From the IMG/VR virus record IMGVR_UViG_3300000059_000086, positions 1-18,704 of that record: a DNA stretch of 18,704 bases; one strand, written 5' to 3'. Source of the DNA: a virus (taxonomy: Duplodnaviria > Heunggongvirae > Uroviricota > Caudoviricetes). The position numbers and the translations under genes were made by a program. Under the pieces are notes generated by a model. That model was not told the origin of the DNA. It searched no databases and saw nothing but the letters and a program-made list of their open reading frames with translations. Positions 66 through 1,959 of the stretch are shown here, in pieces (the stretch's first letter is position 1; each line of letters starts with the position of its first letter).

Positions 66-140
66 CCGGAGATCAGCACCGGTCATCACAACACAACAGG
101 TAAGAGCATTTGTAGAGTTCGACTCTCTACCGTGGGCTTT
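66..140 (+). pseudogene. tRNA remnant: leader CGGAGATCAGCACC followed by a T-arm-like hairpin (tagag-TTCGACT-ctcta) and a T-run, but no complete cloverleaf
   Basis: Shares the 14-nt leader with the tRNA-Ser-like gene at 339; only a T-arm-like stem-loop with TTCGACT loop is intact; no acceptor stem or CCA found. Confidence 0.2.
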
Positions 141-338: not shown

Positions 339-425
339 GGAGAGTAGGGAGCATGGTGCTCAAGCGGTCTTGAAATCCGTCCCGTCGCGCAAGCGATGAT
401 GGTTCGATTCCATTACTCTCCGCCA
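339..425 (+). tRNA. Non-canonical type II tRNA-like gene, probable tRNA-Ser (anticodon UGA)
   Basis: 7-bp acceptor stem GGAGAGT/ACTCTCC, discriminator G plus CCA, T-arm gatgg-TTCGATT-ccatt, long variable arm with tcgc/gcga stem, anticodon loop CTTGAAA; D-arm short and anticodon stem closed by a U-U mismatch, so function is uncertain. Confidence 0.5.
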
Positions 426-523
426 TCGCAACGTTAAGAGTATTTGGCTAATTAAGCGAATGCCGGAAGCAGAACCGGATCACCAAATGCGTACAGGCGT
501 CATCGCCGCCCAGCCAGCCAAGT

Positions 524-547
524 GCTCTTACCATTGCGGTGAATGCG
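524..547 (+). repeat. Copy 2 of the ~24 bp repeat (GCTCTTACCATTGCGGTGAATGCG)
   Basis: Aligns with 171-204 and 1145-1170. Confidence 0.5.
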
Positions 548-715
548 GCTAAGCGCACGCGGAACAGTTAAAACAGTAAAGGTGGTCTTTTTACTGGCGT
601 AACGAGAATCCATAAGTGATCCGGCGTTAATTGTTAACTGGTTAACGTCACCGGGAGGCACCCGGCACCGCAACCTAACAGCAATGGCGTTTGTCTTAAA
701 AGGTGGCTGCAAGTG

Positions 716-844
716 ATGGATTTTTGGGCGTTTGCCGATAAAAACCCGGAGTGGACATTATTGTTTCTGCTGGTGGTTGCATACGGGGTAGAGCAAGCGG
801 CAAAAGCCTTACGCGGTTCTGGCAAAAAGCGTAAGCGTAATTAA
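716..844 (+). CDS. Small ORF (42 aa): hydrophobic segment followed by a basic tail (GKKRKRN), ending 10 nt before the tRNA
   Basis: ATG at 716 preceded by AGGTGG about 9 nt upstream; translation MDFWAFADKNPEWTLLFLLVVAYGVEQAAKALRGSGKKRKRN; below the ORF-track length cutoff. Confidence 0.25.
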   Translation: MDFWAFADKNPEWTLLFLLVVAYGVEQAAKALRGSGKKRKRN

Positions 845-853
845 CAGTAATCT

Positions 854-929
854 GGCCCTTTAGCTCAGTGGTTAGAGCGGGCGACTCATAATCGCACGGT
901 CACCGGTTCAAGTCCGGTAGGGGCCACCA
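854..929 (+). tRNA. tRNA with CAU anticodon, ileX-like architecture (tRNA-Ile2/lysidine type, or Met)
   Basis: Full 76-nt cloverleaf: acceptor GGCCCTT/AGGGGCC, D-loop AGTGGTTAG, anticodon loop CTCATAA, T-loop TTCAAGT, 3' CCA; closely resembles E. coli ileX as remembered. Confidence 0.85.
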
Positions 930-1383: not shown

Positions 1384-1959
1384 ATGTTAACGGCGAACGA
1401 TAACGCGTATTCAGAAGATGATCTCGTTTTGAGTGACTTTATAGGGCGACGAGAATGCTGGACGCAAAAGCGCGAGGAGCTTTATGCAGCGTTAGTTCGT
1501 AAAGGCGTCAACATCGAAACCGCACAGAACGGCGATATGACAGTGGTAAGTGTTGGACTGCACGGCGTAAGCGTGTCAGCAATCAATCATGAGCCGTACA
1601 TTGCGTTATCCGAGTCGATGGTAAGGTTAGTTAAGTTCCTGAAGTACACAGAAGCGAATAACGTGCTCATCGCCAAAAAGAACATCCCGTTCTCATCGGC
1701 CTTTTACTGGATGATGAAGGGGCTTGATGCCCGGCGAACATCATGGCCTAAAGGGAGCTATATATCGATGCTCCGTGGCAGTGTTGGCAGCAAAGAAAAG
1801 CTCGTCGAATTCCTGCCGGAAGAGGCATTCGATATTGTTGAAGGTTGTGATGTGATGGTTATGCCTCGCCTGGTAATGATGAATGGGGATTTACAGGCGC
1901 AGACAGACTGGTTTGCAACTGGTGTTGATATTATCGCTACTGACTGGGAGGTTTTTTGA
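1384..1959 (+). CDS. Hypothetical protein (191 aa) with a C-terminal DUF2829/Tad2-like segment
   Basis: AAGGAG RBS 7 nt upstream; C-terminal blocks FYWMMKGLDARRTSWPKG and DIIATDWEVF parallel the DUF2829-like C-terminus of the 9601-10263 product. Confidence 0.65.
   Translation: MLTANDNAYSEDDLVLSDFIGRRECWTQKREELYAALVRKGVNIETAQNGDMTVVSVGLHGVSVSAINHEPYIALSESMVRLVKFLKYTEANNVLIAKKNIPFSSAFYWMMKGLDARRTSWPKGSYISMLRGSVGSKEKLVEFLPEEAFDIVEGCDVMVMPRLVMMNGDLQAQTDWFATGVDIIATDWEVF

What the first reader, a model, noticed from the sequence alone, without database searches (positions are those of the whole stretch)
339..425. Non-canonical phage tRNA-Ser(UGA)-like gene
The sequence has a perfect 7-bp acceptor stem with CCA, a canonical T-arm and a long variable arm typical of tRNA-Ser, with anticodon loop CTTGAAA. 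The D-arm is short and the anticodon stem has only four pairs closed by a U-U mismatch. Gene finders may miss it; it could be a functional unusual tRNA or a decaying one.
Basis: seen in the sequence. Interest (0 to 1): 0.45.

Follow-up and report, generated by a model that had tools for sequence, protein, structure and literature searches.

The report
Phage serine tRNA, 8/4 cloverleaf
This is a real, conserved serine tRNA gene carried by P1/D6-like phage-plasmids, folded in the unusual but already described "8/4" shape (one extra acceptor pair, one fewer T-stem pair, a selenocysteine-tRNA-like D-arm); it is already annotated in public records, so it is a tidy confirmation, not a discovery.

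Summary
ARAGORN calls tRNA-Ser(UGA) at exactly 339-425 (+).

The gene is known:
- The window is a D6/P7/P1-like phage-plasmid.
- Copies 95-99% identical are annotated tRNA-Ser in phage D6 and in about 300 E. coli plasmids.
- The D6 record already notes that tRNAscan-SE would not call the amino acid.

It is not decaying:
- Homologues sit in tRNA clusters of unrelated phages (rV5-like, T5-like, T4-like, SSU5-like) and in many IMG/VR contigs.
- Every stem in these homologues shows compensatory changes.
- The window's U·U mismatch allele recurs as an exact 39-mer in 30 of 302 E. coli records.

The cloverleaf needs one correction. Across 68 distinct relatives, position 8 covaries with position 65 (AU 30, GC 21, UG 6, CG 1, UA 1). 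The canonical 49:65 pair does not covary (2 double changes, 17 mispairs). The fold is therefore 8-bp acceptor plus 4-bp T-stem. The D-arm is a 5-bp stem with a UGG loop. This is the "(8/4) tRNASer / allo-tRNA" class of Mukai et al. 2017.

Most likely role: host SerRS charges it and it reads UCN codons. UCA is not enriched in the phage genes, so why phages keep it is open.

Novelty: already known. Interest is low to moderate.

The parts
339..425 (+). tRNA-Ser(UGA) gene, 87 nt, CCA encoded
   Evidence: ARAGORN. Rfam tRNA-Sec model 42 bits, E=1.1e-6. Orthologues annotated tRNA-Ser in D6 and RefSeq plasmids.
339..346 (+). Acceptor stem, 5' strand, 8 nt. G339-U345 pair with A415-C421. A346 (position 8) pairs with U414 (position 65).
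   Evidence: Seven perfect pairs are read directly from the sequence. The eighth pair is inferred from covariation in 68 relatives: AU30 GC21 UG6 CG1 UA1 other6.
347..348 (+). Two-nucleotide linker (GG) between acceptor stem and D-stem
   Evidence: The 2-nt linker is the commonest layout in the family. Position 9:64 and position 10 with the base after the D-stem do not covary.
349..361 (+). D-arm: stem GAGCA (349-353) / UGCUC (357-361), loop UGG (354-356). Can also be read as 4 bp plus an AUGGU loop.
   Evidence: Hairpins of 4-6 bp with different sequences occupy the same place in all 68 relatives. The loop GG is invariant in 68/68.
364..380 (+). Anticodon arm: stem 364-368/376-380 with a U368·U376 mismatch at standard 31:39; loop CUUGAAA 369-375; anticodon UGA 371-373.
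   Evidence: Sequence. All five stem pairs covary in the family. The loop is identical to that of host serT.
381..398 (+). Long variable arm: CCC, stem GUCGC (384-388) / GCGAU (393-397), GCAA loop (389-392), then G398 unpaired in the 8/4 fold.
   Evidence: Sequence. Compensatory differences against P7 (A-U to G·U, U·G to C-G) and against L131 (C-G to U-A).
399..413 (+). T-arm: 4-bp stem AUGG (399-402) / CCAU (410-413), loop UUCGAUU (403-409).
   Evidence: Sequence. Pair 50:64 is AU54 GC6 CG4. Pair 51:63 is UA17 GU22.
414..425 (+). Acceptor stem 3' strand (U414-C421), discriminator G422, CCA 423-425.
   Evidence: Sequence. G1-C72, G2-C71 and G73 match the bacterial serine identity set (PMC9976931).
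306..333 (+). Upstream repeat D2: hairpin GTCGG-AGATCAGCA-CCGAC followed by CACCACAA. It lies immediately 5' of the tRNA. Context only; function unknown.
   Evidence: A second copy lies at 64-91. The same element precedes the tRNA-Ser of an SSU5-like plasmid.
854..929 (+). Neighbouring canonical tRNA (anticodon CAT), the orthologue of P1 trnI (tRNA-Ile2). Same strand, probably the same transcript.
   Evidence: ARAGORN. Rfam tRNA 66.7 bits. P1 annotation.

Best explanation
It is an intact, selectively maintained phage tRNA-Ser(UGA) of the 8/4 architecture. The architecture is an 8-bp acceptor stem, a 4-bp T-stem, a 2-nt linker, a 5-bp D-stem with a 3-4-nt GG loop, and a long variable arm.

Proposed working, step by step:
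1. It is transcribed with the neighbouring tRNAs and small genes from a promoter upstream of the window (inferred).
2. RNase P cuts at G339 and the 3' end is trimmed to the encoded CCA (inferred).
3. It folds as the 8/4 cloverleaf (shown by covariation in relatives).
4. Host SerRS charges it through the long variable arm, G1-C72, G2-C71 and G73. The features are shown; charging is inferred. Mukai et al. showed that 8/4 allo-tRNAs are serylated and used in E. coli translation.
5. EF-Tu delivers it to read UCA, and by wobble other UCN codons, like host serT, whose anticodon loop it copies exactly (inferred).

The selective benefit is not settled. Simple codon supplementation is not supported for UCA. 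A back-up serine decoder during infection, when host tRNAs are depleted or attacked, is a plausible but untested reason.
For: Detection:
- ARAGORN call at 339-425.
- tRNA-Sec covariance-model hit, E=1.1e-6. Mukai et al. found this class in the same way, as tRNASec-model false positives.

Conservation:
- Orthologues are 95-99% identical in D6, P7 and about 300 E. coli plasmids.
- The flanks are only 87-89% identical.
- Homologues lie inside tRNA clusters of rV5-like, T5-like, T4-like, SSU5-like and Pseudomonas phages.
- 70 distinct compact-D-arm tRNA-Ser(UGA) sequences were found in the loci held, mostly IMG/VR contigs.

Structure on 68 sequences:
- 95% of cells are paired, against 77% in shuffles.
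- 207 cells carry double changes, against 54 in shuffles.
- Pair 8:65 is AU30/GC21/UG6/CG1/UA1.
- Pair 49:65 has only 2 double changes and 17 mispairs.
- Pair 9:64 has 18 mispairs.
- Near-identical relatives differ by a triple compensatory swap at 6:67, 7:66 and 8:65 (L037 against L020/L039).
- The D-stem hairpin is present with many different sequences, and the loop GG is invariant.

The window's own allele:
- The exact 39-mer with U376 is in 30 of 302 E. coli records and 37 of 280 plasmids.
- It occurs on a different variable-arm background that is itself compensated.
- The mismatch costs about 1.2 kcal/mol.

Serine identity features and the host comparison.

No promoter-like or terminator-like site in 1-1500. 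In P1/P7 the tRNA block lies downstream of the C1-controlled ban operator.
Against: - No expression, processing or charging data for this gene were found or could be generated here.
- In the window's own sequence, 8/4 and 7/5 are both possible and isoenergetic (-31.2 against -31.1 kcal/mol). The 8/4 assignment rests on relatives.
- Six of 68 relatives fit 49:65 but not 8:65.
- The homologue set was retrieved with a pattern fixing CTTGAAA, GGTTCGATTCC and CCGCCA. Invariance of those positions, including G1-C72, G2-C71 and G73 in alignment A2, is by construction. The set is also not an unbiased census.
- The thermodynamic MFE is not a cloverleaf.
- UCA is not enriched in the window's ORFs against a 50-kb host sample: 11.2 against 11.8 per 1000, p=0.58. 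The usual codon-supply rationale therefore lacks support.
- The sequence falls below Rfam gathering scores for both tRNA and tRNA-Sec.
Confidence: 0.8

Rival explanations
1. It is a functional tRNA-Ser, but with the ordinary 7/5 branch: a 7-bp acceptor stem and a 5-bp T-stem closed by a G398·U414 wobble. A346 is simply an unpaired position-8 variant.
For: Both folds are possible in this sequence and are isoenergetic. G49 pairs with U65 or C65 in 51 of 68 relatives. Six relatives fit 49:65 only.
Against: Position 49 hardly varies, while 8 and 65 change together: 29 double changes against 2. Fourteen relatives pair 8:65 but not 49:65. Position 8 is A, G or C rather than the usual U8 in 58 of the 70 compact-class sequences, and the 10 with U8 mostly pair it with G65 or A65. 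Canonical class II tRNAs in the same phage clusters keep U8.
Confidence: 0.12
2. It is a decaying tRNA pseudogene. The U368·U376 mismatch and the shrunken D-arm are damage.
For: The mismatch at 31:39 is absent from most orthologues, which carry A or G at that site. The sequence falls below Rfam gathering scores. tRNAscan-SE gave no isotype in D6, and one plasmid carries the label tRNA-OTHER.
Against: The compact D-arm is the conserved state of a large family with covarying stems. The U allele is present unchanged in 30 E. coli records and 37 plasmids from unrelated sources, and on two variable-arm backgrounds. Pseudomonas phage Pyxpy01 has the same U·U. The variable-arm differences from P7 are compensatory. 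The tRNA is more conserved than its flanks.
Confidence: 0.04
3. It is a selenocysteine-type or recoding tRNA. This reading follows from its best Rfam match (tRNA-Sec) and its Sec-like D-arm.
For: RF01852 is the best clan hit at 42 bits. The tRNA has a long D-stem with a tiny loop, G73 and a long variable arm. SelA recognises D-arm shape (PMC7609411).
Against: The anticodon is UGA, which reads serine UCA, not UCA, which reads the UGA stop codon. The acceptor branch is 12 bp, not 13. The score is below the gathering score of 47. The anticodon is a normal serine one, so no reassignment is implied.
Confidence: 0.02
4. Its main value to the phage is not codon supply but counter-defence. On this view it is a structurally distinct serine decoder that survives, or decoys, a host or rival-element tRNA nuclease. 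Alternatively it keeps translation going when host tRNA-Ser is depleted.
For: UCA is not enriched in the phage ORFs, whereas ATA, ACA and AGA, read by neighbouring phage tRNAs, are. The same odd architecture recurs for Ser(UGA) in unrelated phage families, while other class II tRNAs in those clusters stay canonical. The next gene, 1384-1959, carries a Tad2-like anti-defence domain. Phage tRNAs are documented counter-measures to tRNA-cleaving defences (PMC10264068, PMC11464382, PMC11555353).
Against: No nuclease is known here that targets enterobacterial tRNA-Ser(UGA). The anticodon loop is identical to the host's, so an anticodon-loop nuclease would not be evaded. The evidence is entirely circumstantial. 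This rival is compatible with the best explanation at the level of molecular mechanism.
Confidence: 0.15

Closest known systems
(8/4) tRNASer, included in the allo-tRNA class (Mukai et al., Nucleic Acids Res 2017, PMC5389517)
   Same: - 12-bp acceptor branch split 8+4.
- tRNASec-like D-arm: long stem and tiny loop with GG followed by a pyrimidine.
- Long variable arm, G73 and a serine anticodon.
- Found in phages.
- Surfaces as a sub-threshold hit of the tRNA-Sec covariance model.
   Different: - The published phage examples came from uncultured marine (alpha-proteobacterial) phage contigs. This one sits in cultured, model enterobacterial phage-plasmids.
- The anticodon stem is 5 bp, with one mismatch in this allele, not the longer stem described for allo-tRNAs.
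- Most allo-tRNAs carry non-serine anticodons; this one does not.
Phage D6 tRNA-Ser gene H7U15_gt001 (NC_050154.1 7145-7231) and PGAP-annotated tRNA-Ser of P1/D6/SSU5-like E. coli plasmids
   Same: Orthologous gene, 95-99% identical, in the same place after the tRNA-Thr gene. The same oddity is noted in the record ('AA not called by tRNAscan-SE').
   Different: The window allele has U at 376 (standard position 39) where D6 and P7 have A. It also has G384 and C386 in the variable arm. The surrounding genes differ: tciA is absent here, and there is an STnc100-like element plus a small ORF instead.
E. coli serT, the host tRNA-Ser(UGA), canonical class II 7/5 tRNA
   Same: Identical anticodon loop CUUGAAA. 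G1-C72, G2-C71, A3-U70, G73 and encoded CCA. Long variable arm. Presumably the same synthetase and the same codons.
   Different: - The host tRNA has U8, a 3-bp D-stem with an 11-nt loop, and a 5-bp T-stem.
- The phage tRNA has A8 paired to U65, a 5-bp D-stem with a 3-nt loop, and a 4-bp T-stem.
Bacterial tRNASec (selC, Rfam RF01852)
   Same: 8-bp acceptor stem, extended D-stem with a very small loop, long variable arm, G73, charged by SerRS.
   Different: tRNASec has a 13-bp branch (8/5), a 6-bp D-stem and anticodon UCA. This tRNA has a 12-bp branch, a 5-bp D-stem and anticodon UGA, and scores 42 against a gathering score of 47.
P1 tRNA genes trnA (Asn), trnT (Thr), trnI (Ile2) in the C1-controlled ban operon
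   Same: Same genomic neighbourhood and strand. The window's second tRNA (854-929) is the trnI orthologue.
   Different: P1 itself lacks the tRNA-Ser; plp and upl occupy that position. The P1 tRNAs are canonical.

Membership tests
(8/4) tRNASer / allo-tRNA (Mukai 2017) | 12-bp acceptor branch made of an 8-bp acceptor stem and a 4-bp T-stem | tested here: met
   Pair 8:65 is AU30 GC21 UG6 CG1 UA1 other6 with 29 double changes. Pair 49:65 has 2 double changes and 17 mispairs. The 9/3 alternative has 18 mispairs. In the window's own sequence 8/4 and 7/5 are isoenergetic.
(8/4) tRNASer / allo-tRNA (Mukai 2017) | tRNASec-like D-arm (long stem, tetraloop-size loop) | tested here: met
   Stem 349-353/357-361 is 5 bp with loop UGG. 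The commonest family layout is a 2-nt linker, 5-bp stem, 3-nt loop and 2-nt linker (31 of 68). GG is invariant.
(8/4) tRNASer / allo-tRNA (Mukai 2017) | Long variable arm and G73 (or U73) discriminator | tested here: met
   5-bp stem plus GCAA loop at 384-397; G422.
(8/4) tRNASer / allo-tRNA (Mukai 2017) | Anticodon stem longer than the canonical 5 bp | tested here: not met
   The would-be sixth pair (A363 with C381) is a mismatch. In the family it reads AG28 AC23 CG7, so it is not a conserved pair. The paper describes this feature for allo-tRNAs in general. Whether it is required of the (8/4) tRNASer subgroup could not be checked, because the supplementary figures are not held.
(8/4) tRNASer / allo-tRNA (Mukai 2017) | Serylated by SerRS and active in bacterial translation | not testable with these tools
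   Only the identity features can be read from the sequence.
Canonical bacterial class II tRNASer (7/5) | U8, a 3-4-bp D-stem with an 8-11-nt D-loop, and a 5-bp T-stem | tested here: not met
   A346 is at position 8. The D-loop is 3-5 nt. The fifth T-stem pair is not supported by covariation. Host serT was used as the reference and is confirmed in 5426 of 5426 genomes.
Canonical bacterial class II tRNASer (7/5) | Serine identity set: long variable arm, G1-C72, G2-C71, G73, no dependence on the anticodon | tested here: met
   All features are present. They are conserved in the nine phage and plasmid sequences found by BLAST and aligned in A1, which the search pattern did not bias. The identity rules come from PMC9976931.
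tRNASec (RF01852) | Anticodon UCA, 13-bp acceptor branch, score at or above the Rfam gathering threshold | tested here: not met
   The anticodon is UGA. The branch is 12 bp. The score is 42 bits against a gathering score of 47.
Rfam tRNA (RF00005) | Score at or above the gathering score (29 bits) | tested here: not met
   Only the tRNA at 854-926 is reported at gathering thresholds. The exact RF00005 score is hidden by clan competition.
P1-family phage-plasmid tRNA operon | Same-strand tRNA block downstream of the C1-controlled ban operator, with Asn/Thr upstream and Ile2 downstream | tested here: inconclusive
   The Ile2 orthologue is present at 854-929. The closest plasmid has Arg-Tyr-Thr upstream, and D6 and P7 have Asn-Thr. 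The window starts downstream of those genes, and the promoter and operator lie outside it.

The most novel reading that the evidence does not exclude
The 8/4, Sec-like architecture may not be a neutral quirk. It may be the reason phages carry their own tRNA-Ser(UGA). Two versions are open:
- It makes the phage copy distinguishable from host serT, for example resistant to, or a decoy for, a tRNA-directed defence nuclease, or independent of host D-loop and s4U8 modification.
- More exotically, its Sec-like D-arm lets host SelA convert part of it to Sec-tRNA that EF-Tu can deliver to UCN codons.

If either holds, P7, D6 or rV5 in E. coli would be a ready genetic system for testing what natural 8/4 tRNAs are for.
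Probability: 0.1. Interest if true: 0.7.

Novelty: already known. Interest (0 to 1): 0.25.

Why it matters
As a gene it adds nothing new. It is annotated in D6 and in hundreds of plasmids, and its structural class was published in 2017.

The useful points are practical:
1. The tRNA-Ser of the classical coliphage lineages (P7, D6, SSU5-like plasmids, rV5-like, T5-like and T4-like Klebsiella phages) belongs to the 8/4 class. That class was known from bacteria and from phage contigs in metagenomes, so its biology could be tested directly in E. coli.
2. Standard covariance thresholds and some curated records (P7) miss it or leave it untyped. That is a small annotation lesson.
3. The codon-supply explanation fits the neighbouring tRNAs (ATA, ACA, AGA) but not this one. 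Why phages keep a structurally distinct serine decoder remains open.

Tried and rejected
- **Rfam at gathering thresholds.** It finds only the neighbouring tRNA.
- **Thermodynamic folding.** The MFE is not a cloverleaf, and it cannot separate 8/4 from 7/5: -31.2 against -31.1 kcal/mol.
- **9/3 layout.** Rejected. Pair 9:64 is GU45 with 18 mispairs, while 50:64 covaries.
- **Six-bp anticodon stem and a pair between position 10 and the base after the D-stem.** Not supported.
- **Codon compensation for UCA.** Not supported: 11.2 against 11.8 per 1000, Fisher p=0.58. The host sample is only 50 kb of a low-expression region. From memory, the genome-wide E. coli value is nearer 7 per 1000, so a mild enrichment cannot be excluded.
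- **'Singleton mutation or sequencing error' for U376.** Rejected.
- **Promoter and terminator scan of 1-1500.** Nothing found.
- **Supplementary figures of Mukai et al.** Wanted for the exact (8/4) tRNASer consensus and its phage sources, but they are not held.
- **Search for a tRNA-Ser-specific defence nuclease in enterobacteria.** None found in the papers opened. The bacterial Schlafen paper reports Lys, Met and T5 Ala targets. The eLife paper mentions mycobacterial VapC cleavage of tRNA-Ser anticodons.

Full report
**1. What is there**

The sequence at 339-425 (+) is GGAGAGTAGGGAGCATGGTGCTCAAGCGGTCTTGAAATCCGTCCCGTCGCGCAAGCGATGATGGTTCGATTCCATTACTCTCCGCCA. ARAGORN calls it tRNA-Ser, anticodon TGA, at exactly these coordinates, and calls a second tRNA (anticodon CAT) at 854-929.

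- At Rfam gathering thresholds only the second tRNA is reported.
- With relaxed thresholds, the best clan match for 338-422 is the selenocysteine-tRNA model RF01852: 42 bits against a gathering score of 47, E=1.1e-6.
- The strand folds better than shuffles (z=-2.9), but the minimum-energy fold is not a cloverleaf.

They are the perfect 7-bp acceptor stem, G73, encoded CCA, the T-loop, the long variable arm, the CTTGAAA loop, the short D-arm, and the anticodon stem closed by U368·U376.

**2. Where the window comes from, and whether the gene is known**

The first 1.4 kb matches P1-family phage-plasmids.

- The closest record is E. coli plasmid pEC361_3, 99.1% identical over 1-1400.
- Phage D6 matches at 89% and phage P7 at 88%.
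- Downstream genes are the D6-type late activator Lpa (Pfam BPP1_LPA, E=4e-50) and ORFs collinear with, and the same length as, D6's pacA and pacB terminase genes.

In D6 the orthologous 87-nt gene is annotated tRNA-Ser. Its note reads 'has apparent UGA Serine anticodon but AA not called by tRNAscan-SE'. A 161-nt query around the tRNA matches 336 records from 332 complete E. coli genomes, almost all of them plasmids. Nearly all of the rows listed carry the annotation tRNA-Ser, and one, pEC361_3, is labelled tRNA-OTHER. The P7 GenBank record has the gene (96.6% identical) but leaves it unannotated. P1 itself has plp and upl in that position. The gene and its oddity are therefore already on record.

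**3. Is it alive or decaying?**

*Conservation.* The tRNA is more conserved than its surroundings: 95-97% against 87-89% for D6 and P7.

*Homologues.* Homologues of 73-89% identity sit inside tRNA clusters of unrelated phages:
- rV5-like Vequintavirus
- T5-like and T4-like Klebsiella phages
- a Pseudomonas phage
- SSU5-like plasmids of about 110 kb

A pattern scan of IMG/VR (CTTGAAA ... GGTTCGATTCC N8 CCGCCA) returned 120 loci. Together with the fetched phage loci these gave 82 distinct tRNA-Ser(UGA) sequences. Seventy of them have the same compact D-arm. That pattern was derived from this family, so this is a lower bound on diversity, not a census.

*Covariation.* On an alignment of 68 distinct sequences (A2):
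- The acceptor, anticodon and T stems are 95% paired, against 77% in shuffles.
- 207 cells have changes on both sides, against 54 in shuffles.
- Versions with the 3' partner slid by 1-3 columns drop to 44-62% paired.

*Variable arm.* The window's differences from P7 are compensatory: A-U to G·U, and U·G to C-G.

*The U·U mismatch.* It is not private damage.
- The exact 39-mer containing U376 is found in 30 of 302 E. coli records and 37 of 280 PLSDB plasmids. The hosts include pigs, humans, a giant panda and beach water.
- One fetched example, a 110-kb plasmid, carries a different variable arm that is itself compensated (C-G to U-A). It is annotated tRNA-Ser.
- Other alleles at this site are A (most) and G. 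Pseudomonas phage Pyxpy01 also has U·U.
- The mismatch costs about 1.2 kcal/mol in the cloverleaf.

The 'decaying' reading is therefore unlikely.

**4. The cloverleaf is 8/4, not 7/5**

In this sequence U414 (standard position 65) could pair either with G398 (position 49; the 7/5 layout) or with A346 (position 8; the 8/4 layout). The two are isoenergetic. Relatives decide the question.

| Candidate pair | Pair types in 68 relatives | Changes on both sides | Mispairs |
|---|---|---|---|
| 8:65 | AU30, GC21, UG6, CG1, UA1 | 29 | 6 |
| 49:65 | GU30, GC18, AU1, CG1, UA1 | 2 | 17 |
| 9:64 | GU45, UG2, GC1 | 2 | 18 |
| 50:64 | AU54, GC6, CG4, GU1, UA1 | 11 | 2 |

- Among the 70 compact-class sequences, fourteen pair 8:65 but not 49:65, and six do the reverse.
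- Near-identical relatives differ by a triple swap at 6:67, 7:66 and 8:65. L037 reads GGAGGATA...TATCCTCC, while L020/L039 read GGAGGTAT...GTA(T/C)CTCC. This shows that position 8 belongs to the acceptor helix.
- A 9/3 layout is not supported, because 9:64 does not covary while 50:64 does.

The D-arm is a 5-bp stem with a 3-4-nt loop in most members. The stems have many different sequences (GAGCA/UGCUC, GUUCA/UGAAC, GUCUA/UAGAC, GUGCC/GGCAC, UGCUC/GAGCA, CGUGC/GCACG and others). The loop GG is invariant, consistent with the usual D-loop/T-loop contact. A sixth anticodon-stem pair is not supported, and neither is a pair between position 10 and the base after the D-stem. Other class II tRNAs in the same phage clusters (Ser-GCU, Leu, Tyr) keep U8 and large D-loops, so the architecture is specific to Ser(UGA).

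**5. Comparison with what is known**

Mukai et al. (Nucleic Acids Res 2017, PMC5389517) described tRNAs with 12-bp acceptor branches split 8/4 or 9/3. They found them as false positives of the Rfam tRNASec model. These tRNAs have Sec-like D-arms and long variable arms. [quoted passage not shown] The authors also showed that 8/4 and 9/3 tRNAs are charged and used by the E. coli translation system.

The present tRNA meets the tested features:
- the 8/4 branch
- the Sec-like D-arm
- the long variable arm
- G73
- a serine anticodon
- a sub-threshold hit to the tRNA-Sec model

It does not show the longer anticodon stem described for allo-tRNAs in general.

It is not a tRNASec. The anticodon is UGA, not UCA. 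The branch is 12 bp, not 13. The score is below threshold.

It is not a canonical tRNASer. The host serT sequence was confirmed at 100% identity in all 5426 E. coli genomes. serT has U8, a 3-bp D-stem with an 11-nt loop, and a 5-bp T-stem, although the two share an identical anticodon loop.

The serine identity features summarised by Giegé and Eriani (PMC9976931) are the variable arm, G1-C72, G2-C71 and G73, with no dependence on the anticodon. All are present.

**6. How it most likely works**

Shown:
- The gene is intact and conserved.
- The 8/4 cloverleaf is supported by covariation.
- The identity features for SerRS are present.
- The anticodon loop is identical to the host's.

Inferred:
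- Co-transcription with neighbouring tRNAs and small genes. No promoter-like or terminator-like site lies in 1-1500. In P1 and P7 the tRNA block lies downstream of the C1-repressed ban operator, so it would be switched on in lytic growth. The corresponding region lies outside this window.
- RNase P cleavage at G339 and trimming to the encoded CCA.
- Serylation by host SerRS, delivery by EF-Tu and reading of UCA and other UCN codons.

The benefit is unclear. In 19 window ORFs, UCA is no more frequent than in a 50-kb host sample: 11.2 against 11.8 per 1000, p=0.58. By contrast, ATA (14.9 against 6.3), ACA (15.1 against 10.4) and AGA (7.7 against 2.4) are enriched. These match the Ile2, Thr and Arg tRNAs found beside this gene here or in the closest plasmid.

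A counter-defence or back-up role is plausible by analogy with published phage tRNAs (PMC10264068, PMC11464382, PMC11555353). The adjacent ORF also carries a Tad2-like anti-defence domain. Nothing here tests that role. The anticodon loop is identical to the host's, which argues against evasion of an anticodon-loop nuclease.

**7. Verdict**

- The interpretation 'non-canonical phage tRNA-Ser' is right and 'decaying' is not.
- The cloverleaf should be redrawn as 8/4.
- The gene and its structural class are already known.
- Interest is low to moderate. The residual value is that classical, genetically tractable coliphage lineages carry a natural 8/4 tRNA whose purpose could be tested directly.

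Noticed in passing
window 535-672 (+); repeats at 167-194, 520-547, 1143-1170 and at 64-91, 306-333: There is a sub-threshold match to the Rfam sRNA family STnc100: 40.8 bits against a gathering score of 47, E=4e-7. A 28-nt repeat has three copies and another has two. The tRNA genes appear to sit between repeated units of about 170 nt. Each unit ends in a hairpin followed by CAYCRCAA. The same hairpin precedes the tRNA-Ser of an unrelated SSU5-like plasmid. The function is unknown; the units may be processing or spacer modules.
   Followed up: partly
window 113-131 (+): A T-arm-like hairpin, GTAGAG / TTCGACT / CTCTAC, with a consensus-like T-loop but no tRNA called around it. It may be a tRNA remnant inside the first repeat unit. 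It is bracketed by complementary segments at 100-111 and 167-178.
   Followed up: no
window 448-510 (+); L005 about 1610-1670: The stretch just downstream of the tRNA-Ser, which includes the hairpin GCCGG-AAGCAGAA-CCGG, is conserved at about 83% with the region downstream of the tRNA-Ser in rV5-like lytic phages. The tRNA therefore seems to have moved between phage families together with its 3' flank.
   Followed up: partly
window 1384-1959 (+): A 191-aa ORF next to the tRNA block carries a Tad2-like (Thoeris anti-defence 2-like) domain: PF11195, E=4.4e-10, residues 103-190. RefSeq labels the orthologue 'MW1434 family type I TA system toxin'.
   Followed up: partly
window 713-844 (+): A 43-aa ORF between the STnc100-like element and the second tRNA has no Pfam match. 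Read by eye, it has a hydrophobic core and a basic C-terminal tail (not computed). It is annotated 'hypothetical protein' in the closest plasmid. It occupies the place of tciA/tciB in D6 and P7.
   Followed up: partly
window 854-929 (+): The tRNA that ARAGORN calls Met(CAT) is the orthologue of P1 trnI. P1 annotates it as tRNA-Ile2, which reads AUA after lysidine modification. AUA is 2.4-fold enriched in the window's ORFs against a host sample.
   Followed up: partly
L004 1501-1587 (P7, AF503408.1 72257-72343): The phage P7 reference record contains this tRNA-Ser (96.6% identical) but does not annotate it.
   Followed up: yes
L010 1127-1375; L005 1221-1386: The closest plasmid (pEC361_3) has tRNA-Arg(TCT), Tyr(GTA) and Thr(TGT) upstream of the tRNA-Ser. 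P1, P7 and D6 have Asn-Thr there. An Arg(TCT)-Tyr(GTA) pair likewise lies directly upstream of the tRNA-Ser in rV5-like phages. This suggests modular exchange of tRNA blocks between lytic phages and phage-plasmids.
   Followed up: partly
L005 1690-1788: In the rV5-like cluster, ARAGORN reports a 99-nt 'tRNA-???' with a four-base anticodon (atcc). It has a good acceptor stem and T-arm and lies just downstream of the tRNA-Ser. It is not annotated in the record.
   Followed up: no
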